This document shows positions 11,822 to 52,003 of a stretch of 64,000 nt of DNA, in pieces. The notes under the pieces are model-generated. The model ran no database searches, had not been told where the DNA came from, and saw only the letters and a program-made list of their open reading frames with translations. How positions within the stretch are numbered: position 1 is the stretch's first letter; every line of letters starts with the position of its first letter. The translations under genes and the position numbers were made by a program. The stretch is from a virus, in the IMG/VR virus record IMGVR_UViG_3300032401_001514, positions 32,001 to 96,000 of that record; one strand, 5' to 3'.

Positions 11822-11839
11822 TTAAATACCCATTTGTGT

Positions 11840-25731: not shown

Positions 25732-27102
25732 CTATTTCTTTCTAAGATCTGTTACTCCGGAACCAAACACCTTGCTGAATTTAGAACTCTTCTTTTTAAT
25801 CTGTTGACGAATACGATCTGCCTCAGATGTAGCCTTCTCTGTTCCAGTATCAAGTGTTAGATTTAGATTGCGAGTATCCGCTCTATCTTTTGCCTTTGCG
25901 GCATCAGCTTGTGCTTCAGTCTTTAATTGTTTAACTCTAATGTCGGGCAATCCTAAACCCGAGAACATAGAGTAAACCTTAACAACATCCTCTTCTATAT
26001 CCGCAGTATAAATGCCTTTGAATACAGCTTCGGCATGCCCACAAACATCACGAATTAATTCCATAGCCAAATTAACACTGCCATTTGGTATTTCGCTCCA
26101 AACTTTTTTATTGGCTACAAAAAATACCCCGGCGTATCTCGTTTGTTTCAAATCAAATCCGCTAGCAAGCAAACCTGAATCCAAGTTATCTACAACTGAT
26201 TCGGCTAGCGCCATTGATTCTTGATAGTTAGCAATAGTCATTTCTCCATAAACGGATAATCCCTCGCCATCAATAAATAATTTCGCAAACTCCATTGAGT
26301 CCAAGCTCTTAACGGCCGAAGCTTCAGAAGAAAATCTATTAAATGCGTCAATTGGTTCAACGATTGCCTGATTACTTATGTTAAAGAAATCCATTATTCC
26401 AACGTCATTATATATGGATTCAATTTTAGCATTATCCACAACAATAAGGTTACTGATAGATTTGCTTTGTGTAAGTTTGGCTAACTTAGACAATGTATGA
26501 AGGGCATTGTTTTTTGTCTGTGTATCATCTGTGCTCATAGGGAGAACAGTAATAACAGTAACTGGCTTTCCTGTAGCAGTTAATACATCAATCATTGTTT
26601 CACACGAGCCAGCTCCTGATCCTCCGCCTAAGCTGAGACACAATAGAAATACTTGCGAGTCTCCAAGCTTATCGTGAACCAATTGATTAATACCGTCGCG
26701 ATGTTTTTCGGCAGCTTCGGCTCCAATGTCAATATCTTTTGCTGCACCGCCAATGCCATGCTCTAATAAATATTTGTTATCTTCTGGAATTTTAATATGT
26801 TCTAAATCCTGAGAGGCAGTATTAAAACAAATGGAAGAATAACCTAAATTATAAAAAGACTCTGCCAATCTAGAGCCAGCCTGCCCCGTTCCTACTACAC
26901 CGAATTCAATACTTCGTTTCTTCTTCTGTATAATTTTTGGCGGCATGGCGTTTTCCTTTTGTTTGCTAGCGAGCTTTGCTCTTAGTTCTTGAAGCTTCTG
27001 TTGATCCACTTCGTCATCTTTTTGACTTACATCTTCGTTTGATATATCATCATGGATTTGCTTTTGTTCTTGTGTTATATCTTCGTTTTTTACACCACTC
27101 AT
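25732..27102 (-). CDS. Tubulin/FtsZ-family GTPase (PhuZ/TubZ-like)
   Basis: VVGTGQAGSRL, signature GGGSGAG, T7-like LDSMEF; ATG 27102 forms an ATGA overlap with the upstream stop and has an AAGGA RBS. Confidence 0.9.
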   Translation of the reverse strand: MSGVKNEDITQEQKQIHDDISNEDVSQKDDEVDQQKLQELRAKLASKQKENAMPPKIIQKKKRSIEFGVVGTGQAGSRLAESFYNLGYSSICFNTASQDLEHIKIPEDNKYLLEHGIGGAAKDIDIGAEAAEKHRDGINQLVHDKLGDSQVFLLCLSLGGGSGAGSCETMIDVLTATGKPVTVITVLPMSTDDTQTKNNALHTLSKLAKLTQSKSISNLIVVDNAKIESIYNDVGIMDFFNISNQAIVEPIDAFNRFSSEASAVKSLDSMEFAKLFIDGEGLSVYGEMTIANYQESMALAESVVDNLDSGLLASGFDLKQTRYAGVFFVANKKVWSEIPNGSVNLAMELIRDVCGHAEAVFKGIYTADIEEDVVKVYSMFSGLGLPDIRVKQLKTEAQADAAKAKDRADTRNLNLTLDTGTEKATSEADRIRQQIKKKSSKFSKVFGSGVTDLRKK

Positions 27103-28079
27103 TGCTTTTTTCCTTCTGTTAATCTTAGAAACCATTGATTGTTATTATACCAATCCAAAGTTTGTTTTAACCCTTGTTTAAATTTGAATTTTGGTTCCCA
27201 TCCAAGGGTTTTAAGTTTATCGTTGGTTGTTGAATATCTATAATCATGCCAAGATCTATCTTTTACAAATTTAAGCAGATTATGTCCTCGACCTAATATA
27301 TTAGCTATTTGTTGGAACATCTCTACGTTAGTAATTTCTTGCTTGGCCGAAATATTATAAACTTCATTTAACGGCGCATGTTCAATTATTTTTATTATTG
27401 CATCACAATTATCCTGAACATGAATCCAACTTCTTATCTCCATTCCTTGACCATAAATAGGAGCCTCATATCCATCCAATATATGCGAAATTATTGACGG
27501 AATTAGATTTTTATTAGACTGTCTTGGGCCATAATTATTACAAGATCTAGTAATGTTAAATGGCAGTCCATAAGTTTCATGGGCGGCTTTTACGATTAGC
27601 TCTCCAGCTGCTTTGGATGCCGAGAAAGCGTTTCGTGGATTTAATGGAGAGTCCTCTGTCCAAGATGGAGAGTCCTCACTAGTTAGCTGTCCGTATACTT
27701 CGTCAGTGCTAGTATAGATGAATCGCTCAACTCCCCAACGAACAGCGGCATCAGCCATTGTTTGTGTGCCAAGAACATTAGATGTAATAAATTTTTGAGA
27801 CTCATCTATAGAATGGTCGCTATAATTTTCAACAGCTCCATGTATAACAATATCCGGCCTTTCGACTTCAAATACTATATTAACAAAATGTTTATCAGCA
27901 GCATCACCAACATAAAATATATGGTTCTTATTGGTATATATTGTATTAAGAACGCTACTATTAGTTATTTTATCTATACTAACAATTTGGTAAGCCGAAG
28001 AATCCTTTAAAACTTTACGAATAAAGTTAGAAAAAATAAATCCTCCAGAACCTGATATTAATATTTTCTTTTTTGTCAT
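27099..28079 (-). CDS. dTDP-glucose 4,6-dehydratase (RmlB)-like SDR with catalytic Tyr replaced by Phe
   Basis: STDEVYG, SCNNYGPRQ, DYRY conserved; YxxxK reads FSASK. Confidence 0.85.
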   Translation of the reverse strand: MTKKKILISGSGGFIFSNFIRKVLKDSSAYQIVSIDKITNSSVLNTIYTNKNHIFYVGDAADKHFVNIVFEVERPDIVIHGAVENYSDHSIDESQKFITSNVLGTQTMADAAVRWGVERFIYTSTDEVYGQLTSEDSPSWTEDSPLNPRNAFSASKAAGELIVKAAHETYGLPFNITRSCNNYGPRQSNKNLIPSIISHILDGYEAPIYGQGMEIRSWIHVQDNCDAIIKIIEHAPLNEVYNISAKQEITNVEMFQQIANILGRGHNLLKFVKDRSWHDYRYSTTNDKLKTLGWEPKFKFKQGLKQTLDWYNNNQWFLRLTEGKKQ

Positions 28080-28103
28080 ACATTTTTATGATTGTAAAGG
28101 TTG

Positions 28104-28940
28104 TTAATAGCAACGCTTAAACATTTGGCGTTTGGCAGCATCGCTTATTGGCCCGATAGAATTTGCTGAGCGCCCACGACCGTTAGAATCGGAAGGGAAT
28201 AGTTCATTGGCCAAGGTATCTGTAATAACACTATGAATTTCCTCTTTGCTTGGGAGCTTTATATTTTCTACATCTTCCGTTTCAAGACTCTTATAAGCAG
28301 AAGCTAATATTTTATTAACTAGTAATAGCTTTCGTTTTGCTTGCCAATACTCTTTGGTAGCATCAGCAACTAGATTCTCAAACTGCTGAACCCTTTGCAA
28401 AGCAGAGCGAGTGATGAGCCATGCAGCTAAACCGGCTGTTGCATTGCCATCATTTTCTGAACTAGTAGCACCGGCTGTTGCATTGCCATCATTTTCTGAA
28501 CTAGTAGCACCGGCTGTTGCATTGCCATCATTTTCTGAACTAGTAGCTCCATATGTATTTTGGAAAGCATCAGCTACACTTTCCGGTAATTCATATTGGT
28601 ACGGTCCTTCGAGGCCCCCGGCAAGGTCGTTGTGCCCATAGTCAAACCCAATAACCTTCTTTAATTTTCTGATGGTTTGATCGATTGTGTTACCAGATTT
28701 GGTTTTAACAAAATCAGGAACAACCGCCTTTGGTTGCGAAGTTAAATCCTGTGCTAAATTATCATAACCCAATTGTGAGGCTATTGAGCTAGCCATATTA
28801 GGCCTGGCTTCATTTACTCTGCGCACTCGTATAGTTGCTTTCTTGCCAAGCTTGCTTTTTTGAGATTTGATTTTAGATTTGGCGCGGCTTACAGACCGGG
28901 CTACGTTAACTTCGGAAGAGCTTCTTGTTTTATTTTTCAT
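28104..28940 (-). CDS. Hypothetical protein with basic N-terminus and 13-aa tandem repeat
   Basis: K/R-rich first ~47 aa; GATSSENDGNATA x3. Confidence 0.7.
   Translation of the reverse strand: MKNKTRSSSEVNVARSVSRAKSKIKSQKSKLGKKATIRVRRVNEARPNMASSIASQLGYDNLAQDLTSQPKAVVPDFVKTKSGNTIDQTIRKLKKVIGFDYGHNDLAGGLEGPYQYELPESVADAFQNTYGATSSENDGNATAGATSSENDGNATAGATSSENDGNATAGLAAWLITRSALQRVQQFENLVADATKEYWQAKRKLLLVNKILASAYKSLETEDVENIKLPSKEEIHSVITDTLANELFPSDSNGRGRSANSIGPISDAAKRQMFKRCY
28431..28547. repeat. 39-bp perfect tandem repeat x3 (in frame)
   Basis: ACCGGCTGTTGCATTGCCATCATTTTCTGAACTAGTAGC at 28431, 28470 and 28509. Confidence 0.95.
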
Positions 28941-29877
28941 GATTAATCCTATTTACATACCATTGAATTGTTTTAATCAGCCCATCAGTAAAAGGAGTTT
29001 CCGCCTTCCAGTTGAGCAAATCCGCAGCCCTAGAAACGTCTAATCGTCTTTTTGGTTGTCCATCAGAAACTTCGCCAGTAAATACGATTTTGCCCTTATA
29101 GTTTGTTAGATTTGCTATTAAGTGAGCCAGGTTTTTTATAGATATATCACAACCTGTTCCAAGATTAATAGGTTCGGGATAATCTAAGCCAGTCGCTACA
29201 GCTTTGACAATTGCTTGAGCAGCATCTCCGGCATATAAGAATTCACGAGTGGCTTCGCCGGTCCCCCAGCATTCAACAGTCGGTTTATCTTCTTTAACGG
29301 CAGAACAAAATTTATTAATTAAAGCTGGTATAACATGGCTGTTTTCTAAATCTGTATTATCATGCGGGCCGTACATATTTACAGGAACTAAATGAGCGCC
29401 TTTTAATCCATATTGTTTGCGATATTCCTTCTGTAACATAAACAACATTTTTTTCGATAAACCATATCCGGAATTAGTTTTTTCTGGAAAACCGTTCCAA
29501 AAATCATCTTCTTTAAATGGGACTGGACAATTTTCTGGATATGAACACACGCTTCCTAAAGTATAAACATATTCTGGTGTATATTTAAAAATGGCATCAA
29601 ATAAATTGATTGCCATTTTTAAATTAACATGTGTTAAATCGGCCGAGCATTTTTTATTTAAACCAATTCCTCCACAATAAGCAGCCATATGTAAAACAAC
29701 ATCTGGCCTATTTTTATCGAAATAATCTATGACAGAACTTTGATTGGTCAAATCAAGCTGGCTACTACTCGGAGTTAATATAGAACTTGAATTAGTGCCG
29801 AATGATTTGTTTGCATATATTGTGTGCATCACATGTTTGCCCAAGAAGCCATTTGCTCCTGTTATTAATAATTTCAT
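28930..29877 (-). CDS. fcl: GDP-L-fucose synthase (epimerase/reductase)
   Basis: GANGFLG, SVCSYP (catalytic Cys), GYGLSK, SHVIPAL (catalytic His), WGTGEATREFLY, DGQPKR. Confidence 0.92.
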   Translation of the reverse strand: MKLLITGANGFLGKHVMHTIYANKSFGTNSSSILTPSSSQLDLTNQSSVIDYFDKNRPDVVLHMAAYCGGIGLNKKCSADLTHVNLKMAINLFDAIFKYTPEYVYTLGSVCSYPENCPVPFKEDDFWNGFPEKTNSGYGLSKKMLFMLQKEYRKQYGLKGAHLVPVNMYGPHDNTDLENSHVIPALINKFCSAVKEDKPTVECWGTGEATREFLYAGDAAQAIVKAVATGLDYPEPINLGTGCDISIKNLAHLIANLTNYKGKIVFTGEVSDGQPKRRLDVSRAADLLNWKAETPFTDGLIKTIQWYVNRINHEK

Positions 29878-30872
29878 TTACTTTCCTTTATTAATTTTTC
29901 TTCTTGGGCTAATTTAAGATCTTCTGTAACCATTTCATCAATCAATTGTTCAAAAGAATATTTTGGTGTCCAGCCAAGTTCTGTTCTTAGTTTTGTAGAA
30001 TCGCCTTGTAGAGAATCAACCTCTGCTGGACGAAGATATTTTGAATCAAACTCAATGTATTTATTTGGATCAAGATCTAATTTTGCGAACGCCAGATCAA
30101 CAAAGTCTCTAACGGAATATTGAGTCCCGGTTGAAACAACATAATCATCTGATTTTTCGGCGGTTGCGATCAAATATACTGCATTAGCCGTATCTTTTGC
30201 GTGACCCCAGTCTCGTCTTGCGTCTAAATTACCAAGGTAAAGTTTATGCTGTAGACCCAGCTTTATTCTGGTAGCAGCGCGAGTGATTTTTCTGGTAACA
30301 AATGTTTCCCCTCTTTTTGGACTTTCGTAATTAAACATAATGATATTTGAAGCAAATAAATTATATGATTCTCTATAGTTAACAGTTGCATAATAACCTG
30401 CAACCTTAGCGACTCCATATGGGCTTCTTGGTCTAAATTTTGTTTCTTCGTTTTGCGGAGGAAGAGTTGAGCCAAACATTTCTGATGACGAACATTGAAC
30501 AAATCTTGTATTTGGGCTGTATTTACGAATAGCTTCAAGGCATCTGATTACACCAGTTCCTGTGATATCCATTGTGTATTCGGGTATATCGAATGAAACA
30601 CGGACATGAGATTGCGCCCCAGCATTAATAAAGATATCTGGTTTTATACTTGAAACAAAATTAATAATAGATGTAGCGTCAGATAAATCACCATATACTA
30701 ATTCTAATTTGTTATCTATATGAGGATCTATATAGAGATGATCTATTCGTTCTGTGTTTAAAGTAGAGCTGCGCCTTTTAAGACCATATATTTTATAGTT
30801 TTTTTCTAGAAATAACTCGGCTAAATAAGAACCTAGTTGGCCATTTATACCTGTGATACAAACTGTTTTCAT
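29874..30872 (-). CDS. gmd: GDP-mannose 4,6-dehydratase
   Basis: AQSHVRVSF, SSSEMFG, PRSPYGVAK, FVTRKIT, LGNLDARRDWGHAKD. Confidence 0.95.
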   Translation of the reverse strand: MKTVCITGINGQLGSYLAELFLEKNYKIYGLKRRSSTLNTERIDHLYIDPHIDNKLELVYGDLSDATSIINFVSSIKPDIFINAGAQSHVRVSFDIPEYTMDITGTGVIRCLEAIRKYSPNTRFVQCSSSEMFGSTLPPQNEETKFRPRSPYGVAKVAGYYATVNYRESYNLFASNIIMFNYESPKRGETFVTRKITRAATRIKLGLQHKLYLGNLDARRDWGHAKDTANAVYLIATAEKSDDYVVSTGTQYSVRDFVDLAFAKLDLDPNKYIEFDSKYLRPAEVDSLQGDSTKLRTELGWTPKYSFEQLIDEMVTEDLKLAQEEKLIKESK

Positions 30873-31123
30873 GTTTTTCCGTACATTTTAGTTGAGCCTT
30901 GTTTATATAGCTTTTGTAATTCACCTGTTTTTATAAGATGATTAATTTTCTCATCAATTTCTTGAATCAAATCATTTCTTTGTTGATTAGCTATATTTGT
31001 TATTTGGGTTGCTTTCGCCATCTCTTCATTAGATACGTCTTCTTTTCTTTTAATATCTTCTGCCATCCATATGCGTAAGTTCACCACGGTAAGCTTATCT
31101 ATTAAATTACCTATTGTTTCCAT
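30869..31123 (-). CDS. Small helical protein (DUF4254-like)
   Basis: METIGNLIDKLTVVNLRIW...NQQRNDLIQEID pattern; coupled to gmd. Confidence 0.6.
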   Translation of the reverse strand: METIGNLIDKLTVVNLRIWMAEDIKRKEDVSNEEMAKATQITNIANQQRNDLIQEIDEKINHLIKTGELQKLYKQGSTKMYGKT

Positions 31124-31908
31124 ATGTTTCCATTTTCTTTTATATCACCAATGGTATCAGATAATAAATTATCATAAGAATATTTCCATTCTACATCAGC
31201 CATAATTAATTTTTGTTTATCTTGCGCTTTATTGCTTTTTTCATTTACAAAATAATTAAAATCTAATTCATTTAATTTATAAAGATCTTTAATAAAATCT
31301 CCAACATGAAATAATCTACCAGCACCAACAACGCAATCATTATTTTTTTCTATACTCTTTGTAACTAAAAATTTAGTATGTATCATGTCTCGATAAAAAT
31401 CTAAATTTCCTACATTTATTTTTGTTTTATTAATAATTGAATTAAAAATTTTACCAAACAAAAAACATTCATTTCTATATACAGAATTAAAATAAAAAGG
31501 ATGTATAAGAACAACCTTATAATATGTATCATCTATCAATCTTCGTTCTTTTATTTTATTTAAAAGCAATAATTTTGATATGGCATATTCATTATTTATG
31601 TTAAAATAAGGATTGGAATTTAAAGATATATGCCCAGATAATTTGTTCCAAAGTTCACAGCTAGTATAGCATACTATTTTATTTGAATTTTTTAATAATG
31701 CCTCAATAATATTTAGCGTATAAATATAATTAGGCGTAATATAATCTATATTTGTTTCATAAATTCTTTGTTCAGCAAAGGTAATATAAACTGATTCCCA
31801 TATGTTATTTTTTAAATAATCAAAATCAATATTTCTTGAGGATATTTTCGTGAATCCTTCATTTGGAAAATATTTTGAAAGCTGAGAATTACCTATTACC
31901 AAATGCAT
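31111..31908 (-). CDS. Atypical NAD-dependent epimerase/SDR-like protein
   Basis: YAISK motif and RDMIH; degenerate Gly-rich loop. Confidence 0.6.
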   Translation of the reverse strand: MHLVIGNSQLSKYFPNEGFTKISSRNIDFDYLKNNIWESVYITFAEQRIYETNIDYITPNYIYTLNIIEALLKNSNKIVCYTSCELWNKLSGHISLNSNPYFNINNEYAISKLLLLNKIKERRLIDDTYYKVVLIHPFYFNSVYRNECFLFGKIFNSIINKTKINVGNLDFYRDMIHTKFLVTKSIEKNNDCVVGAGRLFHVGDFIKDLYKLNELDFNYFVNEKSNKAQDKQKLIMADVEWKYSYDNLLSDTIGDIKENGNIWKQ

Positions 31909-33127
31909 ATGAGCTATCTATAACCTCGAATTTAGGACATGGAACAATAAATTTCCCACCATTAGCCAAGTACTCTTTTTCTCTATCGCAAAATTCGTTA
32001 ATGAAATGCCATGGAAGAACTAATAAATAATCAGGTTTTGCTTTGTGCATATCTTCTTCTGAGTAAATTATGATGTTAGTACCCAAAGTTTTTAAACCAA
32101 ATTTATAAGGATTTCTTTCAGCTATACCATCTATTAAAGTATTATCTAATCCAAAATATTGTAATAATGTATTTCCTTTGGTAGATGCTCCATAAGCCCA
32201 TATTGTTTTTCCATTGCTTCTTTCTTGTTTTATAAAAGAAACAGTTTGTTCTTTTAATTGATTGATCTTATTATAAAAATCTAACCAAGTGTTTACCTCA
32301 TCTAATTTCAATGTTTTTTCATATTCTAATAATGATTTGATTCTAAAATTAGAAACGTCTCTATGAGATTGTGTGGCAAATTTTTTTAAATTAGCCACAT
32401 CTTTCATTATATAAATTCTAAAAGAACCGCCATTAATATCATTCAATTGACAATCAACGATTTTAAAATTATTTTTTTCTAATATAGATTTTAAATTGAA
32501 TAATGAGTAATAAAAAATATGTTCATGGCATATATTATCGAAAGCTAATTGTTCTAACATTAGCGGCGTATAACTCAATTGCATCACCCATAAACCATTA
32601 TCATCTAATATTTCATTGATATCTTTTATAAACTGTTCTGGATATTCAAGATCGTAAAACATTGCTATTGAAGTAATAATTTTAGCTTTTAAATTTCCAT
32701 ATTTGGTTAATTTAAATGTGGTGGCTTTAAAAAAATCTTGAATAATCAAATTCGCATGTTTTTCGGATTCAACCTTGTAAGTGTCGTCAGCTGGATCGAT
32801 GCCTATTCTAATCAAATTGGTAGGCACAAAACTAAGCAGCGTGCCATCGTTTGCAGCTATGTCTATCCATAAATCATCTTGTTGTAATTTATATACAGAA
32901 GTTATTGAATTAACAATTTGATTCAATTCATTTTTCATTGTTGTATTAATACCACTGCGGTACCAATATTTACCATACATTGAATCAAACGGAGCAATTT
33001 TATTTAATCGAATATTTCCATCATCAGTTAAGAATAAATTCATTTCTATTTTATCGCTTCGGGGTACATCTTCGTCCTTGATAAAATCAGAAACGTATAG
33101 TTCTCCCAAAGTAAATAGCTCTTTCAT
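31889..33127 (-). CDS. NDP-hexose C-methyltransferase-like SAM-dependent enzyme
   Basis: DIAANDGTLL, FDNICHEHIFYY, AYGASTKGNTLL, LLVLPWHF. Confidence 0.85.
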   Translation of the reverse strand: MKELFTLGELYVSDFIKDEDVPRSDKIEMNLFLTDDGNIRLNKIAPFDSMYGKYWYRSGINTTMKNELNQIVNSITSVYKLQQDDLWIDIAANDGTLLSFVPTNLIRIGIDPADDTYKVESEKHANLIIQDFFKATTFKLTKYGNLKAKIITSIAMFYDLEYPEQFIKDINEILDDNGLWVMQLSYTPLMLEQLAFDNICHEHIFYYSLFNLKSILEKNNFKIVDCQLNDINGGSFRIYIMKDVANLKKFATQSHRDVSNFRIKSLLEYEKTLKLDEVNTWLDFYNKINQLKEQTVSFIKQERSNGKTIWAYGASTKGNTLLQYFGLDNTLIDGIAERNPYKFGLKTLGTNIIIYSEEDMHKAKPDYLLVLPWHFINEFCDREKEYLANGGKFIVPCPKFEVIDSSYAFGNR

Positions 33128-33140
33128 TATTAACCTAAGC

Positions 33141-34037
33141 TTAGAATTTGTCTAATGTTTCTTGGACAGCGCGCTCAAATCCACGATTCATTTGTTCTAA
33201 TGACATATTATCACAAACGAAGCTATTAACGGAACCATTAGCAATAACCGAACTTACTATGGTTTGGCCACAAAGCTCAACTCTTGGCACTGGTTTATTG
33301 TTCCAACAGCTAACGGCCACGGTAATGCCACTAGACACTCCAATAAACAAATCACAATAATTATGAATTAAAGCTGTTTGTCTTACTGTAAAATCAGAAC
33401 AAGAAACAACGCCTGAATCATCAATATATTTTACATAATCTATTTTGCTAGCAAAAATAAAATTACATTTTCCAAATTTATTTCGACATAATTGCATTAT
33501 ATTTTTGGTTACATCTTCGCTTAATTGAAAATTACCAGCTGATCTTAGTTGCGATTCGAACATAACAGTTTTTGTATGCGGTAAACTGGAACAAAAATCT
33601 TTTGCTTTATTTCGTTCTTCATCAGAAAATCCTAAGTATGGATGCCACTCCCAAGATGGATCTGCACCGTAAACCATTCTTGGTATGTTTGAATAATTTA
33701 CATTATCGAATATTTTATTAGGCAGCATGGCCCAAGGAGCTGGAAAATATCCATTATGCAAATCTTTCATAGACTCAAAAGCGTCCCTTTTGTCTAAACA
33801 AAGCTGTCCATTTGCATTCATTATTTCTCTAAAATCTACACGCGGCCAATCTCTTACCTCAGTAATAGCATCATTAAATTTCAACATATCTAAGTAAGTG
33901 TGTTTATCAGCAGAATGATTACAATACCATATAATCTCTTTACCAGGCCATAATATATCTTTATATTTCAAAACACAAGTACACAACCCAATATCTCCAT
34001 GTTGTCCATGAACGAAAATTCCAATTTTATCTGCCAT
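33141..34037 (-). CDS. GT9-like glycosyltransferase
   Basis: N-terminal GQHGD and C-terminal CDLFIGVSSGI. Confidence 0.55.
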   Translation of the reverse strand: MADKIGIFVHGQHGDIGLCTCVLKYKDILWPGKEIIWYCNHSADKHTYLDMLKFNDAITEVRDWPRVDFREIMNANGQLCLDKRDAFESMKDLHNGYFPAPWAMLPNKIFDNVNYSNIPRMVYGADPSWEWHPYLGFSDEERNKAKDFCSSLPHTKTVMFESQLRSAGNFQLSEDVTKNIMQLCRNKFGKCNFIFASKIDYVKYIDDSGVVSCSDFTVRQTALIHNYCDLFIGVSSGITVAVSCWNNKPVPRVELCGQTIVSSVIANGSVNSFVCDNMSLEQMNRGFERAVQETLDKF

Positions 34038-34046
34038 ATACTCTCC

Positions 34047-34847: not shown

Positions 34848-34857
34848 TAATAACCTC

Positions 34858-35487: not shown

Positions 35488-35517
35488 TTATTTTCCTTTG
35501 TTGTTTATACTAGTTAA

Positions 35518-43602: not shown

Positions 43603-44348
43603 TCATCTTTGTATGGAATATATATTGATTTCTGTTTAGTCATGTAAAGCCTTGAATTTTCATAAAATTTTGGCAAATTTTCCTTATGATGCTTATTTTT
43701 AAACTCTCTGTACTCCCCTATATCATTTTCGCCTTCGCCAATATGCTTTCCCATCTCTTTTATGTATCCTAGTTGATGCCCTAATACCCTGGCGCGCATG
43801 CCAAAATCTGCGTCCTCATGTGCGTAGGTTTTATATTCAGTATTAAAGAACCCCAGCATCTTATGTAAACTCTTTGGGAAAACCATGCAGGCTGTCCCTA
43901 GATTGCCCTGTGGCTTTCTTTGGAATTCCTTGCCGCCCTCGGACACCAACCCATACGCAGAGCCCTCCATATTGACTCCTATCATCGCGTATTTGGGATT
44001 TGCTTTAAGAATAGCTATACATTCGTCAAGCCATCCATCCGGCACCAGAATATCATTATCAATCGTTGCGTACCAAGAAGTATCTAAATTATCAGCCAAT
44101 AATAATGCCTGGTTCCTACCAATAGCTATTCCTTTATTTTCATTATTATATTGGCATACAATTTTGCCACCATCATATTTATTAACTAATTCGGATAAAT
44201 ATTGTTTGGTATCATCGGTAGAACCATTATCAACAATAGCCAGGTTATAAGGTTGTTTTGTATTTATTAATATGTTATTTATTGTTTGTTTGGTAAGCTC
44301 TAATCTGTTATATGTTACCATCATTAATGTAGCAATATCTTCTTTCAT
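43599..44348 (-). CDS. Glycosyltransferase family 2
   Basis: VTYNR, IVDNGSTD, TIDND, HEDADF. Confidence 0.88.
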   Translation of the reverse strand: MKEDIATLMMVTYNRLELTKQTINNILINTKQPYNLAIVDNGSTDDTKQYLSELVNKYDGGKIVCQYNNENKGIAIGRNQALLLADNLDTSWYATIDNDILVPDGWLDECIAILKANPKYAMIGVNMEGSAYGLVSEGGKEFQRKPQGNLGTACMVFPKSLHKMLGFFNTEYKTYAHEDADFGMRARVLGHQLGYIKEMGKHIGEGENDIGEYREFKNKHHKENLPKFYENSRLYMTKQKSIYIPYKDE

Positions 44349-45319
44349 TTAATCTCCGAAAAAACAGATAATGGAGTTAACATACCTGGCTTAGCAATAA
44401 ACATTGGCGGACCATTATCGTCTTTAAAAACAAACTTCTTATTTTTGGTTAAACTAAATTCACCCTCTTGTTTCAAAGCTATTATTTTTGCCTTAGATAT
44501 CAGGAGTGACATCAGCAATATATCAATCTCGTTTGCCATTATTGCTTTTGCGAATGGTAATACGTACAAAATATAATCAAGCCTCATTGGTAATAGATGC
44601 AGCTTCATTCCATAATATTGAGATTCATTTTGCGTGCATATCACAAGCTCAATTCCAGATTGGTGCAACATCGCGGCTAATGATTTGACTTGCTGTGATG
44701 TCCATTCTAGACAATTGTTTTTGTGATTTGACCATCCAGTATGGCTTGGTACAATAAAAACAAATGGCTTATTTAAAAAAAACTTATCACGTTTGGCCCA
44801 GTTTTCAAATTCAGATATTGTTATTTTATTCCTCATTTTTGGAACGTAATTTGTGTTCCATTCAACTAATGAGTTCTCGAAAATTTGTTTAATAACAGCT
44901 CGTTGATCATGATATCCAAATTTGTTATAACAAGTAAACACAGATATATAATTATTAAGATAATTAAAAAATACAAATTTGTTTTTATCCATAAATAACG
45001 GAGTTGTATATTCTTTTAAAGTTTGTTCATTAATATTTGCATTTAATATATTTGCTAAACCATTTGAGCGAACTATATAATTAAAACGATTATCACCTAT
45101 CCAATGAAGTTTTTTATTTGGACTTAGATTGTTTATTGTTTCCAAAATCGTTAAAGACATAAATGATTCGAATAAGCCTCCGAACCCAGCTACTACAACT
45201 TCTTTGTTATCTAAAGCTTTGTTCCATGATACACCGTCTATTTTTGGAATTATATATCTGCCATTTTTAACGTGCCATGGAACAGATGGAGCAAATGGAA
45301 AATACTTAATCGATGACAT
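44345..45319 (-). CDS. GT9-like glycosyltransferase
   Basis: GFGGLFES N-terminal loop and two-domain pattern; weak. Confidence 0.45.
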   Translation of the reverse strand: MSSIKYFPFAPSVPWHVKNGRYIIPKIDGVSWNKALDNKEVVVAGFGGLFESFMSLTILETINNLSPNKKLHWIGDNRFNYIVRSNGLANILNANINEQTLKEYTTPLFMDKNKFVFFNYLNNYISVFTCYNKFGYHDQRAVIKQIFENSLVEWNTNYVPKMRNKITISEFENWAKRDKFFLNKPFVFIVPSHTGWSNHKNNCLEWTSQQVKSLAAMLHQSGIELVICTQNESQYYGMKLHLLPMRLDYILYVLPFAKAIMANEIDILLMSLLISKAKIIALKQEGEFSLTKNKKFVFKDDNGPPMFIAKPGMLTPLSVFSEIK

Positions 45320-46133
45320 TGTATTTTGGATTTTTAATATATGAATCGTGATCTATTTGATATAGAGGGCTTCCGTTTTTCCACCAACGCTTTTTAAAAC
45401 AACCAACGTTATGACTCATAAACATTTTATTAACAGGATTTAGTTTTAATGTAGCGCTTTCTTCATGAGTTATTTTTGTTTCGCCAGCGTAAACAATTTT
45501 CTCATCCTTACCTATACGTAAACACAGATCGATATCTTCAAAAGCCCAGTTTAAATCTTCGCACATGCCGCCAGCTCGTTTAAAACTAGAAACCTTCATT
45601 AAACATACAGCGGCAGTTACGGCCTGAAAATATCTGTCTGCATAAGAAGCTGCATCCGCTTCTTCATGACGCCTATAGTGCCATGGCATTTTACCATACT
45701 GATTGCTAAAAATTACTCCGGCATGTTGTAATTTATTATCATTATCCATAAGTTTAGCACCAACAACAGCTGCATTAGTTTTCTTCATTAAATTCCACAT
45801 TTTTAATAAAGATACTTCTTCGTTAAATATCACATCATTATTCAAAAGTAAAATTAAATCATCATCATTTGGATCAGCTTGTTTAAATAAATAATTAACA
45901 CATGTGGCAAAATTATCTCTATTATGACCTGCTTCATACAGATTTAATTCGGATTGTTCCCACAAAGGTGTTGATAATATTGCTTTAGTATTATCTTTTG
46001 ACCCATTATCTCTTACGTGCCATATAAAATCCATATCATTTTTAAGTTGGATAAAATTTTGTTTCAATCCATATTGTAACTTTTGTAATTTTTGCTCACC
46101 ATTCCAAGTTAATGTTAATGCATGTAATTTCAT
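45306..46133 (-). CDS. Glycosyltransferase family 2
   Basis: RDNGSKD, LLNND, AVTAA, FEDIDLCLR. Confidence 0.88.
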   Translation of the reverse strand: MKLHALTLTWNGEQKLQKLQYGLKQNFIQLKNDMDFIWHVRDNGSKDNTKAILSTPLWEQSELNLYEAGHNRDNFATCVNYLFKQADPNDDDLILLLNNDVIFNEEVSLLKMWNLMKKTNAAVVGAKLMDNDNKLQHAGVIFSNQYGKMPWHYRRHEEADAASYADRYFQAVTAAVCLMKVSSFKRAGGMCEDLNWAFEDIDLCLRIGKDEKIVYAGETKITHEESATLKLNPVNKMFMSHNVGCFKKRWWKNGSPLYQIDHDSYIKNPKYNVID

Positions 46134-46327
46134 AATAGTTCCAGTAAATTTCTAACAACAAGGAATATAGCTATTGCACACCCAATTATTCCAGAACCAA
46201 ACATAATATGCAGTCCGTCATAAGTGCTAATGCTTGGACCTAATGATATCAAAAATCCTATTAATATCCCGTATAACGGATATAGAAAATAGGAAACAGA
46301 TTTTAAGAAGATGTCTTTGAAAGCCAT
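46130..46327 (-). CDS. Small two-TM membrane protein
   Basis: Two hydrophobic stretches; ATGA overlap with the downstream GT2. Confidence 0.5.
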   Translation of the reverse strand: MAFKDIFLKSVSYFLYPLYGILIGFLISLGPSISTYDGLHIMFGSGIIGCAIAIFLVVRNLLELL

Positions 46328-47037
46328 TTGTTTACAAAAATAGTTCGTGCATTTAAATATAGCTCGGATATATTTAATTTTTTACTGGTCATCTTGCCAA
46401 AATGAATTACCGGAACTGGAACAATTTGCGTTGGTATACCGGCGTCCCTGGCCCTGAATCCCAAATCCGTATCTTCAAAATAACAAAAAAATTCTTCGCT
46501 AAATATTTCATTATCAGAAATGTCTAGTTTCTTCCAAGTCTCTTTAGAAGCAGTAATACACCAACCAGACATATAAGAATTGCCATCTAAATTTGTATTT
46601 GCTTCTTTAACAAAATTTAAATTATTATCTAACTGTCCCATGGTCGGCCCAACAATAGCGCCGTAACCATTAATAATATCATTTTTAGCTGCTGCAATTA
46701 ATGGCTGTGTCCATGTTTTATAGTTGTCCTGCACTCTGACATCATTGTTTAAAAACATTGCATACTGGCCTTTTGATGCCTTAAAACCCTTATTGCAAGC
46801 TTTACCGAATCCTTCGTTGATTTCGTTTCTAATATAACGAAATCCACCAGGCAATATTGGTCCGCCAGAACCATCAAAAAACATTGTGGTTAACATCATT
46901 TCAGTATCATCAGTGCTGCCATTATCAACAATAATCACTTCGTGATCATCAGGTAATTCTGACAAATCTTTTAATGTAGCTTTGGTGAGGTTCCAGTTGT
47001 TAAAAACCGGTATTATAATACTTAATTTAATGGTCAT
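46303..47037 (-). CDS. Glycosyltransferase family 2
   Basis: SIIIPVFN, IVDNGSTD, FLNND, YFEDTDL. Confidence 0.9.
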   Translation of the reverse strand: MTIKLSIIIPVFNNWNLTKATLKDLSELPDDHEVIIVDNGSTDDTEMMLTTMFFDGSGGPILPGGFRYIRNEINEGFGKACNKGFKASKGQYAMFLNNDVRVQDNYKTWTQPLIAAAKNDIINGYGAIVGPTMGQLDNNLNFVKEANTNLDGNSYMSGWCITASKETWKKLDISDNEIFSEEFFCYFEDTDLGFRARDAGIPTQIVPVPVIHFGKMTSKKLNISELYLNARTIFVNKWLSKTSS

Positions 47038-47519
47038 TTTTGCTCTTTATTTTTAATAATCCATTCTTTCCAGCATTTATCGTTAGCATCTTTACAGAAG
47101 CCACTGATGTCATCCGCTATGTGTTTCTTACAATTCTTACATTTTGCAAACGAGGCGATCTCATTTAACTTTTCCATAATGAGTTTATCTTCTTCTTCAA
47201 GAATTGAAGCAGCCCCTGAGCTAGCTGCCGTTTCTTCATACATGGCATGCCGCTTAGACATTTTAATTCGTCTTGCGGCTCTTAACAACAATAAGCAACA
47301 AATTAAATCAAGCTCTTCCTCATGAGTTGGATAACCAGATGCTATTTTTGTAATGTTTAGATCAGCAAACATTGCAATTCTTTCCTCAATAGAAAGATAA
47401 GAATATGTATTACATTCGTCTAATTCATCAATTTTCTTTTGTATATATTTATTTAATCTATCACATTCGCTAGCAGCCTCAGCAAGAATGCCAATCTGTA
47501 CATTTATATCTTCTTTCAT
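47034..47519 (-). CDS. Hypothetical protein with C-terminal Cys cluster
   Basis: CKNC...C...C near the C-terminus; ATGA overlaps on both sides. Confidence 0.65.
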   Translation of the reverse strand: MKEDINVQIGILAEAASECDRLNKYIQKKIDELDECNTYSYLSIEERIAMFADLNITKIASGYPTHEEELDLICCLLLLRAARRIKMSKRHAMYEETAASSGAASILEEEDKLIMEKLNEIASFAKCKNCKKHIADDISGFCKDANDKCWKEWIIKNKEQK

Positions 47520-47932
47520 TTGTGTCCTTTTAATCTTTGATGTAAATCTTCCTCATACTCATGCACGCGCCAACCAAACTTATTAATTCTAGCCTGAGCC
47601 TCTTCCATATCAATCGGTCTTAGTCCATCAGCATCTCCAATTGATATAAAGTATGGTTTAAATGATTTTGTAAAAGAATCAAATTCGCCGCATGCTTTCC
47701 ATGCTGGCTTCCAATTTCTTAAACGAAAATAATCATCCGTGTATTGTTTAATTGATCCTAATATATTTTCTTTTATTAAAGGCGTGTATGGTTGATTCAC
47801 GAATTCTTTGCTTATTCTAATTATTCCGTCAATAAATGTTTCGTTTTCTGGATTAATACCTTTATCAATAGTATTAAATATGCTATCATAAAAATAAGGA
47901 GTTTGATATATTATTTTATTACTCATTGACAC
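47516..47932 (-). CDS. Hypothetical protein
   Basis: 138-aa ORF, coupled. Confidence 0.6.
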   Translation of the reverse strand: MSMSNKIIYQTPYFYDSIFNTIDKGINPENETFIDGIIRISKEFVNQPYTPLIKENILGSIKQYTDDYFRLRNWKPAWKACGEFDSFTKSFKPYFISIGDADGLRPIDMEEAQARINKFGWRVHEYEEDLHQRLKGHK

Positions 47933-49011
47933 AATCCTATTATTTGATCAACAATCTTATCCCATGTTAAACGCGCTAGTTGCTCTTGCATATTGGGACG
48001 GAACTTATTCATTAAATCATCATAGTTGCCTACTGCAAGCTTTAATTTACTAGCAGCATCCTCAATGCTTGGTTCGAACGTCTTGGCATAAGGAGATGGA
48101 ACCCAATATTGCATTTTCTTTGGCGCTCTAACCTCTTTGCCTTCTATAAGCAACGAATTGTTTTCGTTCATATATTCAAGCTGTCCTCCCCAATTAGGAG
48201 CTATTACCAAGTTGTTTGTAGCCATACCCTCTAATCCAGGCAACCAAAAGCACTCTGCGTGAGTAGCTGAGAACACGATATCGCAGGCATTATACAAAGG
48301 AACCATGCTATCTAAGAACTTTGTAATAATTTCTACCTCAGCATGATCAGGATATTTCTTACAAAATGTATTATAAATATCCCAAAAATCAACAACAAAA
48401 GAACGCAGATTATTTGTGGTTTTATTTATGCTTATTTTAACTACCAAACAAACATCATCTTTTTTTGTAAAAGCTTTTCCGAATGATTCTAATAAACCAT
48501 CTATATTTTTTCTAACATGAGGTTGAGCAATATTGGCAAGTATCTTATATTTCTTTTTTGTATTAAGCTTATATATTTCTTTTGATGAATATTCTTCTGT
48601 ATTAATTCCGTGTGGCACAACAACCATATGTTCTTTCGGAACGCCGTTACTACTATATATAGATTCCATAAATTTAGAGCTTGGCAATAATTTATCGGTT
48701 GCTTTATAATATTTAGCAAACCCTGGCGGCAAAACAGTTGTTTCGTAATTCCAAATACCAAATCTATTTTTTGTTCCATGAGATAAATAACCTGCAAAAT
48801 TTCTCATAGCCGTATAACTAATTTGCATATCGTAATTATTATCTAATTTTTCATTTATATATGGCTTTAAATCTAATGGAAATAAATCGTAACCATTTGT
48901 AGATTTTAAATGAACTTCGTGATTTTTCTTAATTAAAGCTCTAGCTATATTTTGTCCAACAATTGACCAAGAATGATTCTGAGATAAAAATTGTTCCATA
49001 CATACTTTCAT
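47923..49011 (-). CDS. Glycosyltransferase family 4
   Basis: VVPHGIN, VRKNID, AECFWLPGLEGMA. Confidence 0.88.
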   Translation of the reverse strand: MKVCMEQFLSQNHSWSIVGQNIARALIKKNHEVHLKSTNGYDLFPLDLKPYINEKLDNNYDMQISYTAMRNFAGYLSHGTKNRFGIWNYETTVLPPGFAKYYKATDKLLPSSKFMESIYSSNGVPKEHMVVVPHGINTEEYSSKEIYKLNTKKKYKILANIAQPHVRKNIDGLLESFGKAFTKKDDVCLVVKISINKTTNNLRSFVVDFWDIYNTFCKKYPDHAEVEIITKFLDSMVPLYNACDIVFSATHAECFWLPGLEGMATNNLVIAPNWGGQLEYMNENNSLLIEGKEVRAPKKMQYWVPSPYAKTFEPSIEDAASKLKLAVGNYDDLMNKFRPNMQEQLARLTWDKIVDQIIGLCQ

Positions 49012-51999: not shown

Positions 52000-52003
52000 G
52001 CTT

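What the first reader, a model, noticed from the sequence alone, without database searches (positions are those of the whole stretch)
27099..49011. 22-kb all-soluble glycosylation island fused directly to the baseplate operon: candidate virion glycan-shield system
The island has about 11 glycosyltransferase domains, 3 methyltransferases and 6 nucleotide-sugar enzymes, packed with overlaps immediately downstream of the baseplate genes with no terminator between. I see no Wzx flippase, Wzy polymerase, ABC exporter or initiating phosphoglycosyltransferase; the only membrane protein is 65 aa. That argues against O-antigen conversion and for cytoplasmic assembly of a complex methylated, deoxysugar-containing glycan on phage particles, as established for chloroviruses and Megavirinae but little described for tailed phages (inference).
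Basis: partly seen in the sequence, partly recalled or inferred. Interest (0 to 1): 0.85.

Follow-up and report, generated by a model that had tools for sequence, protein, structure and literature searches.

The report
Modular glycan-building island of huge phages
An uncultured huge phage from sediment carries 25 back-to-back genes for making unusual sugars and joining them into a glycan, with no genes for export. Its whole clade keeps a core of this gene set at the same spot, so the glycan probably goes on the phage's own particle, but that target is unproven.

Summary
Window 27099-49011 is a run of 25 minus-strand genes with gaps of at most 30 nt. It has 8 supported glycosyltransferase domains plus one lead, rather than about 11. 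It also has 3 methyltransferases, 6 nucleotide-sugar enzymes and one 65-aa two-helix membrane protein.

No initiating transferase, flippase, polymerase, ABC-2 permease or GT-C enzyme was found on this contig (about 30% of the genome). None was found in a 435-kb complete relative or in two further large relatives.

New here: the island is clade-wide and modular. Four genes (GT4, GT2, GT2-like, RmlB-like dehydratase) sit between the last tail gene and a tubulin gene wherever the region was captured. They are as conserved as replication genes. Between them, cassettes differ from phage to phage, and islands range from about 5 to 22 kb.

The virion-glycan reading is the best single explanation (about 0.45) but is not shown. 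Remodelling of the host envelope remains a serious rival. The "fused to the baseplate operon" argument does not discriminate, because the island overlaps the tubulin gene just as tightly.

Closest known are the cyanophage P-SSM2 cluster, Megavirinae clusters and mycobacteriophage virion glycosylation. This scan has noted similar phage glycan islands on other DNA many times.

The parts
49051..51999 (-). Context: 982-aa distal tail/baseplate-module protein just upstream of the island. It has a dockerin type I domain (residues 592-656) and 9 DGY tripeptides (0.23 expected).
   Evidence: Orthologues at 34-56% identity sit next to the GT4 gene in L001, L015, L017, L018 and L025.
47923..49011 (-). 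Core gene 1: GT4-family (GT-B) glycosyltransferase, 362 aa. It is the first gene of the island.
   Evidence: Pfam Glyco_transf_4 and Glycos_transf_1, below the cut-off here and above it in the L001 orthologue. 929 homologues; the best 120 are at least 54% identical and lie on contigs up to 486 kb. Present in 9 of the sampled loci that reach the island's start and in L025; no such locus lacks it.
47516..47932 (-). 138-aa ORF of unknown function. No homologue in the sampled relatives.
47034..47519 (-). 161-aa ORF of unknown function. No homologue in the sampled relatives.
46303..47037 (-). Core gene 2: GT2 glycosyltransferase, 244 aa.
   Evidence: Pfam Glycos_transf_2, E 7.6e-23. Orthologues in 10 loci, mean identity 46%.
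46130..46327 (-). 65-aa protein with two hydrophobic segments. It is the only membrane-type protein in the island and is not conserved in relatives.
45306..46133 (-). Core gene 3: GT2-like glycosyltransferase, 275 aa.
   Evidence: Pfam Glycos_transf_2, 28.6 bits against a cut-off of 23.3. Orthologues in 10 loci, mean identity 42%.
44345..45319 (-). GT-B fold enzyme closest to GT9 heptosyltransferases (WaaF, WaaC), 324 aa.
   Evidence: Weak Pfam hint to GT9 (E 0.033). AF2 pLDDT 74, pTM 0.75. Foldseek top hits 1psw, 3tov and 2gt1, E 7.6e-9 to 1e-6. Only 8 sequence homologues. Orthologues in L018 and L025.
43599..44348 (-). GT2 glycosyltransferase, 249 aa (accessory module A).
   Evidence: Pfam E 2.3e-19. 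53-58% identical orthologues in L017, L018 and L023.
40816..43602 (-). 928-aa multidomain enzyme: two tandem CBM-like beta-sandwiches (1-385), GT2 (446-563) and GT6 (680-904).
   Evidence: Pfam. AF2 of residues 1-440, pLDDT 80.6. Foldseek matches tandem CBM22/CBM51, SGBP-B and the Cry/Vip3 CBM-like domains. The N-domain family has 166 cluster representatives. The GT6 domain is 34% identical to P-SSM2/P-SSM5 and 37% to 635-642-kb uncultured phages.
40085..40816 (-). GT11-family (alpha-1,2-fucosyltransferase family) enzyme, 243 aa.
   Evidence: Pfam Glyco_transf_11, E 1.5e-23. Orthologues at 47-50% identity in L006, L023, L024 and L025.
39429..40088 (-). SAM methyltransferase (Methyltransf_11), 219 aa.
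   Evidence: Pfam. One homologue of the neighbouring gene is fused to such a domain (P0393).
38365..39432 (-). 355-aa conserved phage protein, a possible glycosyltransferase (lead only). It is the most conserved gene of the island.
   Evidence: Protein atlas score 0.98 to Uroviricota clusters auto-named glycosyltransferase. 334 homologues, about 65 clusters at 70% identity or more, on contigs up to 476 kb. No Pfam, PDB or PHROG assignment.
37184..38368 (-). PLP-dependent sugar 3-dehydratase of the ColD/RfbH (E1) type, 394 aa. His stands where aminotransferases have the Schiff-base Lys.
   Evidence: Pfam DegT_DnrJ_EryC1, E 3.8e-83. NCBIfam RfbH 311 bits, below the cut-off of 423. Sequence motif SFYYSHHLTTMEGG.
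36291..37187 (-). Fcl/ColC-like SDR, 298 aa. It probably reduces the 4-keto-3,6-dideoxy intermediate.
   Evidence: Pfam Epimerase. NCBIfam GDP-L-fucose synthase 156 bits, below the cut-off. 29% identical to the second Fcl-like gene.
35518..36294 (-). 258-aa ORF of unknown function, conserved in module B.
   Evidence: 61-71% identity in L023, L024 and L025.
34858..35487 (-). FkbM-family methyltransferase, 209 aa.
   Evidence: Pfam Methyltransf_21, 25.7 bits against a cut-off of 22.7. 60-66% identity in L024 and L025.
34047..34847 (-). 266-aa ORF of unknown function. It co-occurs with the 38365 gene even in distant phages.
   Evidence: L023-L025 at 62-79% identity; L026, L027 and L031 at 30-37%.
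33141..34037 (-). 298-aa ORF of unknown function, conserved in module B.
   Evidence: 61-74% identity in L024 and L025.
31889..33127 (-). NDP-sugar C-methyltransferase (Methyltransf_23 plus a Methyltransf_14 C-terminal domain), 412 aa. It implies a branched-chain sugar.
   Evidence: Pfam E 4.1e-45. 60-72% identity in L024 and L025.
31111..31908 (-). 265-aa SDR-like protein lacking an evident Rossmann glycine motif (weak match).
   Evidence: Pfam Epimerase, E 8.8e-4, below the cut-off. 23% identical to Gmd. Motif scan.
30869..31123 (-). DUF4254 protein, 84 aa.
   Evidence: Pfam E 2.9e-9. 69-80% identity in L008, L024 and L025.
29874..30872 (-). GDP-mannose 4,6-dehydratase (Gmd), 332 aa.
   Evidence: NCBIfam TIGR01472, 425 bits against a cut-off of 415. 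Pfam E 7e-119.
28930..29877 (-). GDP-L-fucose synthase-like SDR (Fcl), 315 aa.
   Evidence: NCBIfam 237 bits, below the cut-off of 500. Pfam Epimerase, E 1e-47.
28104..28940 (-). 278-aa ORF of unknown function. No homologue in the sampled relatives.
27099..28079 (-). Core gene 4: NDP-glucose 4,6-dehydratase-like SDR (RmlB-like), 326 aa. In this phage alone the catalytic Tyr is Phe.
   Evidence: NCBIfam TIGR01181, 328 bits against a cut-off of 365. Orthologues in 13 loci, mean identity 52%. AFSASK here versus PYSASK/PYAASK/PYSATK in all 11 distinct orthologues.
25732..27135 (-). Context: TubZ/PhuZ-like tubulin gene. Its start overlaps the island's last gene by 37 nt. It marks the downstream border in all relatives.

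Best explanation
The island is a working, phage-encoded, cytoplasmic glycan-assembly line.

Sugar donors. It takes host GDP-mannose, and ancestrally NDP-glucose, and converts them into GDP-L-fucose (Gmd + Fcl). It also makes a GDP-3,6-dideoxyhexose of the colitose type (Gmd + ColD-type dehydratase + Fcl/ColC-like reductase) and a C-methyl branched 6-deoxy sugar (C-methyltransferase).

Assembly. Eight or nine soluble glycosyltransferases and two further methyltransferases then build a complex methylated deoxy-sugar glycan.

Layout. The four clade-wide core genes (GT4, GT2, GT2-like, RmlB-like dehydratase) lay an inner, conserved part on a conserved acceptor. The exchangeable cassettes between them add a lineage-specific outer part. 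One cassette includes a CBM-CBM-GT2-GT6 enzyme that probably binds the growing glycan.

Acceptor. The most likely acceptor is the phage's own virion proteins, chiefly tail, sheath, baseplate and fibre proteins. They would be glycosylated in the cytoplasm before or during assembly, giving particles a variable sugar coat.

Shown: gene content, solubility, absence of export genes, the conserved core with variable cassettes, and synteny. Inferred: the sugar identities, the inner/outer logic and, above all, the acceptor.
For: 1. Enzyme inventory and intact donor pathways.
2. No membrane enzyme, initiating phosphoglycosyltransferase, Wzx, Wzy, ABC-2 permease or GT-C in the contig, in a 100%-complete 435-kb relative, or in two relatives of 62-71% completeness. 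Controls rang in 9-14 of 14 reference genomes.
3. No integrase.
4. The core four genes are present at the same position wherever the region was captured. Mean identity is 42-52%, against 37-56% for DnaB, UvsW, AAA and tubulin and 42% for the adjacent tail protein. They therefore behave like vertically inherited core phage genes acting on a conserved acceptor.
5. The GT4 family has 929 homologues, the best 120 at 54% identity or more, on contigs up to 486 kb.
6. Island content is clade-specific and modular, 4.8 to 22 kb, as in Megavirinae fibril-glycosylation clusters of 6-33 genes (PMC10117803).
7. All GT2 genes of four genomes but one lie in this island.
8. The exact tripeptide DGY is 7-fold over-represented on the contig (43 against 6 expected). 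It is concentrated in the 982-aa and 2234-aa tail-module proteins, the tail sheath and a virion structural protein. It is 5-13-fold enriched in relatives' tail genes. It is not enriched (3 against 2.6) in the tail region of Bacillus phage G, which has no GT4 homologue.
9. Routes to glycosylatable DNA bases were not found.
10. Precedent exists in tailed phages: mycobacteriophages Che8, Corndog and Myrna (as summarised in PMC12363180 and PMC12619734).
Against: - There is no direct evidence of carbohydrate on any virion protein.
- None of the glycosyltransferases resembles the mycobacteriophage virion enzymes at sequence level.
- GT6, GT11, fucose and colitose-type sugars are typical of bacterial O-antigens.
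- Soluble phage enzymes could work on host undecaprenyl-linked intermediates and use host exporters, so absence of export genes is not decisive.
- The published reading of the closest sequence relatives (the P-SSM2-type clusters) is host-surface modification (PMC7824862).
- The DGY link is a correlation with a single outgroup contrast.
- The tight junction with tail genes is matched by an equally tight junction with replication genes.
- In two relatives, two module genes lie on the opposite strand.
- The host is unknown.
Confidence: 0.45

Rival explanations
1. Host-envelope remodelling. The soluble phage enzymes act at the cytoplasmic face on host lipid-linked or polymer intermediates (O-antigen or core, capsule, teichoic acid, or S-layer glycan precursors). 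Host initiating enzymes and exporters carry the altered glycan to the surface. This blocks superinfection, or stops progeny from re-adsorbing to lysed or infected cells.
For: - This is the standard interpretation of the most similar known clusters, the P-SSM2 15-gene cluster and the 22 genes of S-SCSM2R (PMC7824862 section 3.4.10; PMC12801897).
- GT6, GT11, GT9-like enzymes and fucose and colitose-type pathways are hallmarks of O-antigen and LPS-core synthesis.
- Cassette variability resembles that of bacterial surface-glycan loci.
- Soluble prophage glycosyltransferases that modify wall teichoic acid without any exporter of their own are known (TarP of S. aureus prophages; own knowledge).
Against: - A de novo glycan of 8 or more steps with no initiating enzyme, flippase or polymerase anywhere in a complete 435-kb relative would depend wholly on substrate-tolerant host machinery.
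- There is no integrase or sign of lysogeny.
- The core enzymes are conserved like replication genes across phages that presumably infect different hosts. That fits a phage-borne acceptor better than diverse host glycans.
- It does not explain the DGY tag on virion proteins.
Confidence: 0.33
2. Another cytoplasmic target: glycosylation of non-virion phage or host proteins, or synthesis of a soluble or secreted glycoconjugate or glycosylated small molecule during infection.
For: - The system is all-soluble.
- Several conserved ORFs have unknown function.
- C-methyl and 3,6-dideoxy sugars also occur in natural-product glycosides (own knowledge).
- Iyer et al. consider a secondary-metabolite role for a second cyanophage cluster (PMC7824862).
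Against: - There are no aglycone-building genes (PKS, NRPS, terpene) in the island or nearby.
- CBM-like domains and eight glycosyltransferases point to an oligo- or polysaccharide.
- The conserved position next to tail genes is left unexplained.
Confidence: 0.12
3. DNA hypermodification: the enzymes attach sugars to modified bases of phage DNA to evade restriction.
For: Phage glycosyltransferase clusters that put mono- to trisaccharides on 5hmC exist, and some lie near structural genes (bioRxiv 10.1101/2023.12.21.572611).
Against: - No C5-cytosine methyltransferase and no Tet/JBP dioxygenase in four genomes, although the Tet_JBP control rang in no reference genome.
- A thymidylate-synthase-family gene occurs in only one genome, with a canonical-level score.
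- Eight or more glycosyltransferases, fucose and dideoxy-sugar pathways and CBM-like domains far exceed any known DNA glycan.
Confidence: 0.04

Closest known systems
'LPS / cell-wall' gene clusters of large T4-like cyanophages (P-SSM2 15-gene cluster; P-SSM5, ACG-2014f, S-SCSM1, S-SCSM2R)
   Same: A large lytic myovirus with a contiguous block of soluble glycosyltransferases of several families, nucleotide-sugar epimerases/dehydratases and methyltransferases. No export genes are annotated. There is direct homology of the GT6 domain (34% identity). Content differs between related phages (PMC7824862). The function is unproven in both.
   Different: Here the block is larger (25 genes against 15). 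It sits between tail and replication genes rather than among auxiliary metabolic genes. It has a four-gene core conserved across a whole clade of huge phages. It includes ColD-type, C-methyl-sugar and CBM-CBM-GT2-GT6 components. The phage lineage is unrelated (the nearest cultured relative is Bacillus phage G at 23-30% identity).
Megavirinae fibril-glycosylation clusters and chlorovirus capsid glycosylation
   Same: Virus-encoded nucleotide-sugar pathways plus glycosyltransferases, clustered in 6-33 genes, with clade-specific sugar sets. They work without the usual membrane-bound machinery and make bacteria-like rare sugars (PMC10117803, PMC9614988). Multidomain glycosyltransferases occur in both.
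   Different: Those are eukaryotic viruses, and glycans on fibrils or capsid have been shown chemically. No sequence homology was tested here and no chemistry exists for this phage.
Mycobacteriophage virion O-glycosylation (Che8 gp108-110, Corndog gp38, Myrna; Freeman et al. 2023)
   Same: A tailed phage whose own soluble glycosyltransferases would act on its own virion proteins in the cytoplasm. The proposed role as a surface shield is the same.
   Different: The mycobacteriophage systems have only a few genes and use host nucleotide sugars. The acceptor is a C-terminal extension of the capsid and tail-tube subunits. tblastn with the core GT4 and GT2 found no mycobacteriophage genes. The primary paper was not held; this rests on summaries in PMC12363180 and PMC12619734.
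Seroconversion modules of temperate phages (GtrABC, Oac, Wzy/Iap)
   Same: Phage genes that change a glycan, often placed next to tail-spike genes.
   Different: Those rely on integral-membrane enzymes and lysogeny. Here there are no multi-pass membrane proteins and no integrase.

Membership tests
Cyanophage-type phage glycan ('LPS/CWSM') gene cluster | A contiguous cluster of several glycosyltransferase families plus nucleotide-sugar epimerases/dehydratases and methyltransferases in a large lytic tailed phage | tested here: met
   for the window; for the annotated P-SSM2 region 193.4-205.5 kb.
Cyanophage-type phage glycan ('LPS/CWSM') gene cluster | Homologous components shared with the prototype | tested here: inconclusive
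   Only the GT6 domain was compared (34% identity over 235 aa to P-SSM2/P-SSM5). Other genes were not compared one by one, and the phage backbones are unrelated.
Wzx/Wzy- or ABC-transporter-dependent surface-polysaccharide locus | Initiating polyprenyl-phosphate glycosyl-phosphate transferase (Bac_transf or WecA/MraY type) | tested here: not met
   PF02397 and PF00953: no match in G000-G003. Controls rang in 10 and 12 of 14 genomes.
Wzx/Wzy- or ABC-transporter-dependent surface-polysaccharide locus | Flippase or polymerase (Wzx, Wzy), or ABC-2 permease | tested here: not met
   PF01943, PF04932 and PF01061: no match in four genomes. No protein on the contig has more than five hydrophobic segments, and none of those with several lies in the island. 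PF13440 and PF14667 were not searched.
Temperate-phage seroconversion module (Gtr/Oac/Wzy) | Integral-membrane modifying enzymes and a lysogenic lifestyle | tested here: not met
   No multi-pass membrane protein in the island. No GT-C PMT_2. No tyrosine integrase in four genomes. GtrA (PF04138) and serine integrases were not searched.
Phage virion glycosylation system (mycobacteriophage type) | Phage-encoded soluble glycosyltransferases | tested here: met
Phage virion glycosylation system (mycobacteriophage type) | Glycans demonstrated on capsid or tail proteins | not testable with these tools
   This needs purified particles or heterologous co-expression followed by MS. The phage is uncultured.
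Phage virion glycosylation system (mycobacteriophage type) | Sequence relationship to Che8 gp108-110 or Corndog gp38 | tested here: not met
   tblastn of the core GT4 and GT2 against 50,697 phage records returned Streptomyces, Listeria and gut phage records but no mycobacteriophage.
Giant-virus autonomous glycosylation cluster (Megavirinae/chlorovirus) | Own nucleotide-sugar pathways plus glycosyltransferases, clustered, with clade-specific content | tested here: met
   This is a functional analogy only; homology was not tested.
DNA sugar-hypermodification gene cluster (5hmC-dependent) | A partner enzyme that makes the acceptor base (C5-cytosine methyltransferase plus 5mYOX/TET, or dCMP/dUMP hydroxymethylase) | tested here: not met
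   PF00145 found none. PF12851 found none, but its control rang nowhere. PF00303 occurs only in G002, at 339 bits.

The most novel reading that the evidence does not exclude
A whole clade of uncultured huge phages decorates its tail, sheath, baseplate and fibre proteins with a two-layer glycan. A conserved inner part would be laid by the four core enzymes on tyrosines of the over-represented Asp-Gly-Tyr tag. A lineage-specific outer part of fucose, 3,6-dideoxy and C-/O-methylated sugars would be added by cassettes that phages exchange among themselves. That would be a sequon-directed, cytoplasmic tyrosine O-glycosylation system of virions, with serotype-like variation, new for any virus.
Probability: 0.15. 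Interest if true: 0.9.

Novelty: new variant of a known kind. Interest (0 to 1): 0.58.

Why it matters
Large glycan-synthesis clusters in phages have been known since the P-SSM2 genome, but their target has never been established. Virion glycosylation in tailed phages has been shown only for small mycobacteriophage systems.

This clade offers an unusually clear comparative handle:
- a four-gene core fixed between the tail and tubulin genes;
- exchangeable cassettes between them, giving islands of about 5 to 22 kb;
- a candidate acceptor tag on virion proteins.

If the glycan does coat the particle, huge phages would have serotype-like surface variation. That would bear on how they evade host receptors, decoys, grazers or adsorption to debris, on phage-host network inference in sediments, and on the convergence between huge phages and giant eukaryotic viruses. 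If the glycan goes to the host envelope instead, it would be the largest phage-borne surface-remodelling pathway known. Either result would also help interpret the many similar islands this scan has noted in other uncultured phages.

Tried and rejected
- Expression data: no RNA holder was listed for the stretch, so timing could not be addressed.
- Read laying on four sediment DNA runs: the same island is present at near identity and the tail/GT4 junction is bridged. The listed 'joints' have short sides (under 31-48 letters) at 85% likeness, so they were not taken as deletion variants.
- Promoter scan: sigma-70-like sites are at chance level. It is uninformative for a huge phage that may use its own polymerase.
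- Gap-size comparison of the two island borders in relatives: both vary from 2 to 934 nt, so it does not assign the island to the late or early unit.
- Unknown ORFs: Pfam at E up to 5, PHROGs, and single-sequence PDB searches gave nothing usable. Only two could be folded, which is the cap.
- The protein-atlas lead for the 928-aa N-terminus (score 0.85) was too weak alone. It was later supported by the fold.
- Host inference: MAG labels of misbinned homologous contigs conflict (Anaerovoracaceae, Gammaproteobacteria, Chlamydiota). No host is proposed.
Context of the 38365 homologues was obtained with the search for related loci instead.
- Freeman et al. 2023 (PMC10527164) is not held and is cited only through other papers.
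- Considered and rejected: a recent foreign insertion. GC of the accessory part is only slightly lower (0.30 against 0.33-0.37), and its genes are shared with other clade members.
- Considered and rejected: an assembly chimera. Independent runs bridge the junction.

Full report
**What the window is.**
The window is bases 32001-96000 of a single 129,628-bp IMG/VR virus record. GC is 34.5%, there is no terminal repeat, and CheckV completeness is about 30%, so the true genome is probably above 400 kb.

Nearly all genes between 20 and 64 kb are on the minus strand. Upstream of the finding lie:
- a small baseplate protein (PHROG match only, no Pfam family) and a Baseplate_J wedge protein of 1079 aa;
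- a 2234-aa protein with a ConA-like lectin domain;
- a 982-aa protein with a dockerin domain.

Downstream lie a TubZ/PhuZ-like tubulin, a UvsW helicase, an AAA protein, a DnaB helicase and ribonucleotide reductase.

The only cultured relative is Bacillus phage G, at 23-30% protein identity. The phage occurs at near identity in many sediment metagenomes.

**Checking the observation.**
The stretch 27099-49011 holds 25 ORFs. 18 of the 24 internal junctions overlap and no gap exceeds 30 nt.

Glycosyltransferases:
- Pfam supports seven domains: GT4, three single-domain GT2, GT2 plus GT6 inside one 928-aa protein, and GT11.
- An eighth, 44345-45319, has no sequence match. It folds (pLDDT 74) into a GT-B enzyme closest to the GT9 heptosyltransferases WaaF and WaaC.
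- A ninth, 38365-39432, is only a lead from the protein atlas.
- The N-terminal 385 residues of the 928-aa protein are not a transferase. They form two tandem beta-sandwiches matching tandem CBM22 and CBM51 modules, SGBP-B and the CBM-like domains of Cry and Vip3 proteins.

Three methyltransferases are present.

Six nucleotide-sugar enzymes are present:
- a bona fide Gmd, above the NCBIfam cut-off;
- two Fcl-like reductases;
- a ColD/RfbH-type PLP dehydratase, with His at the Schiff-base position;
- an RmlB-like dehydratase;
- a weak SDR remnant.

A Kyte-Doolittle scan finds only the 65-aa ORF with two hydrophobic segments in the island. Terminator-like hairpins occur at chance frequency. The 39-nt gap after the 982-aa gene is AT-rich without a stem. 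Contigs from other runs bridge this junction.

**Export genes in the rest of the genome.**
The contig is only a third of the genome, so I used three large relatives as proxies. They were found through the tubulin gene: G001 (434,688 bp, 100% complete), G002 (301 kb) and G003 (266 kb).

None of the four records has a match to Bac_transf, WecA/MraY, Wzx, Wzy_C, ABC2_membrane or PMT_2. Each of these searches rang in 9-14 of 14 control genomes. There is no tyrosine integrase either. All GT2 genes of the four records but one lie in the syntenic island.

**The island is a clade feature with a core and cassettes.**
Twenty related loci were collected. Wherever the region was captured, the order is the same:
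- last tail gene (the orthologue of the 982-aa protein);
- GT4;
- GT2;
- a variable slot;
- GT2-like;
- a second variable slot;
- RmlB-like dehydratase;
- tubulin.

Mean identities to the window proteins:

| Protein | Mean identity |
|---|---|
| GT4 | 47% |
| GT2 | 46% |
| GT2-like | 42% |
| RmlB-like | 52% |
| Tubulin | 56% |
| UvsW | 51% |
| AAA | 47% |
| DnaB | 37% |
| Tail protein (982 aa) | 42% |

The core therefore evolves like vertically inherited essential genes. The GT4 family has 929 homologues. The best 120 are at least 54% identical and lie on contigs up to 486 kb. None occurs in cultured phages.

Island length runs from 4.8 kb (L001) through 6-8 kb (L005, L011, L013-L015) to about 17 kb (G002), about 21 kb (G003) and 22 kb (window).

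The middle of the window's island looked unique among the first sixteen relatives. It reappears collinearly in three other huge-phage contigs (L023, 252 kb; L024, 428 kb; L025, 126 kb) at 60-79% identity. That is higher than the backbone identity in L025 (tail protein 49%, GT4 51%). The closer backbone relatives G002 and G003 lack this block. This pattern means either exchange of cassettes between clade members or much stronger constraint on the cassette.

Gene 38365 is the most conserved gene of all: about 65 clusters at 70% identity or more, and one homologue fused to a methyltransferase.

**Likely chemistry (inferred from family assignments).**
- Gmd with Fcl gives GDP-L-fucose.
- Gmd with the ColD-type enzyme and the second Fcl/ColC-like reductase gives a GDP-3,6-dideoxyhexose.
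- The Methyltransf_14 enzyme adds a C-methyl branch to a 4-keto-6-deoxy intermediate.
- Two further methyltransferases probably O-methylate.
- No nucleotidyltransferase was seen in the island, so the starting GDP-mannose presumably comes from the host.
- In this phage alone the core RmlB-like protein reads AFSASK where all eleven distinct orthologues have the catalytic Tyr. The ancestral NDP-glucose branch may therefore have been given up here.

**Where does the glycan go?**
Nothing here shows this directly.

In favour of the phage's own particle:
- the complete lack of initiation and export genes in a complete relative;
- the lack of lysogeny genes;
- a core conserved like replication genes, hence a conserved acceptor;
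- clade-specific cassettes, as in Megavirinae fibril glycosylation (PMC10117803);
- a lectin-like tandem CBM on a double transferase.

The DGY tripeptide also favours the particle:
- There are 43 copies on the contig against 6 expected, while the other orders of the same three residues occur 2-12 times.
- The copies sit in the two tail-module proteins next to the island, the tail sheath, a virion structural protein and other very large proteins.
- The tag is 5-13-fold enriched in relatives' tail genes. It is not enriched in phage G's tail region (3 against 2.6), and phage G lacks the GT4.

Against it:
- The link is correlative, with one outgroup.
- GT6, GT11, GT9-like enzymes and fucose and colitose pathways are classic O-antigen and LPS-core chemistry.
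- Soluble enzymes could extend host lipid-linked intermediates and use host exporters.
- The closest sequence relatives of the GT6 domain lie in the P-SSM2-type cyanophage clusters, with 15 soluble genes. The literature reads those as host-surface modification (PMC7824862, PMC12801897).

The island's last gene overlaps the tubulin start by 37 nt. In relatives both borders range from 2 to more than 900 nt.

DNA glycosylation is unlikely. There is no C5-methyltransferase and no Tet/JBP, although that control rang nowhere. A thymidylate-synthase-family gene occurs in one record only (compare bioRxiv 10.1101/2023.12.21.572611).

**Verdict.**
This is a real, intact, very large phage glycan-assembly island. 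My odds for the target are:

| Target | Probability |
|---|---|
| Virion proteins | about 0.45 |
| Host envelope | about 0.33 |
| Other cytoplasmic targets | about 0.12 |
| DNA | about 0.04 |

The kind is known from cyanophage clusters, giant-virus clusters and mycobacteriophage virion glycosylation. New here are the clade-wide four-gene core at a fixed position, the exchangeable cassettes, the size (25 genes), the CBM-CBM-GT2-GT6 enzyme and the candidate DGY acceptor tag.

The scan's notebook holds some 390 earlier notes on phage glycan islands in other genomes. Those are unchecked notes and were not used as evidence. They do indicate that the class is common in uncultured phages and that its target is a general open question.

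Noticed in passing
window 27099-28079 (residues 146-160): The RmlB-like core dehydratase has AFSASK where all 11 distinct orthologues have PYSASK, PYAASK or PYSATK. The catalytic SDR tyrosine is Phe only in this phage, while the STDEVYG motif is kept. The ancestral branch may be inactive here, or this may be a strain polymorphism.
   Followed up: partly
window 49051-51999 and 52004-58708: The 982-aa tail-module protein carries a dockerin type I domain (residues 592-656). The 2234-aa protein carries a ConA-like lectin/Laminin_G_3 domain near its C-terminus. Dockerins are unusual in phage tail proteins.
   Followed up: no
whole contig; window 49051-58708 and L032/L033: The exact tripeptide DGY occurs 43 times against 6 expected. 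It is concentrated in tail-module proteins, the tail sheath and a virion structural protein. The enrichment is shared by relatives (5-13-fold) and absent from the tail region of Bacillus phage G.
   Followed up: partly
window 38365-39432; L023-L031: This unannotated 355-aa protein is the most conserved gene of the island: 70-85% identity in about 65 clusters on contigs up to 476 kb. One homologue is fused to a Methyltransf_11 domain. It co-occurs with the 34047 ORF even in distant phages (30-37% identity).
   Followed up: partly
L016 4222-6168 and 15933-17636 (G003): In this relative the Fcl orthologue and the AAA-ATPase orthologue each match in two pieces about 1 kb apart. This suggests inserted elements (intron, intein or homing endonuclease) or frameshifts.
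   Followed up: no
L023 13916-14713 and L024 13933-15397: In two relatives the 34047 orthologue lies on the opposite strand from the rest of the module, and in L024 the FkbM methyltransferase does too. The cassette is therefore not always a single transcription unit.
   Followed up: no
window 25732-27135: A TubZ/PhuZ-like tubulin gene directly follows the island, overlapping it by 37 nt. It is conserved at 52-60% identity in all relatives. G001 is classed 'provirus' by IMG/VR, yet no tyrosine integrase was found.
   Followed up: partly
window 10001-12000: GC rises to 0.44 in this 2-kb bin against 0.29-0.39 elsewhere. It lies within the 868-aa ORF at 9215-11821.
   Followed up: no
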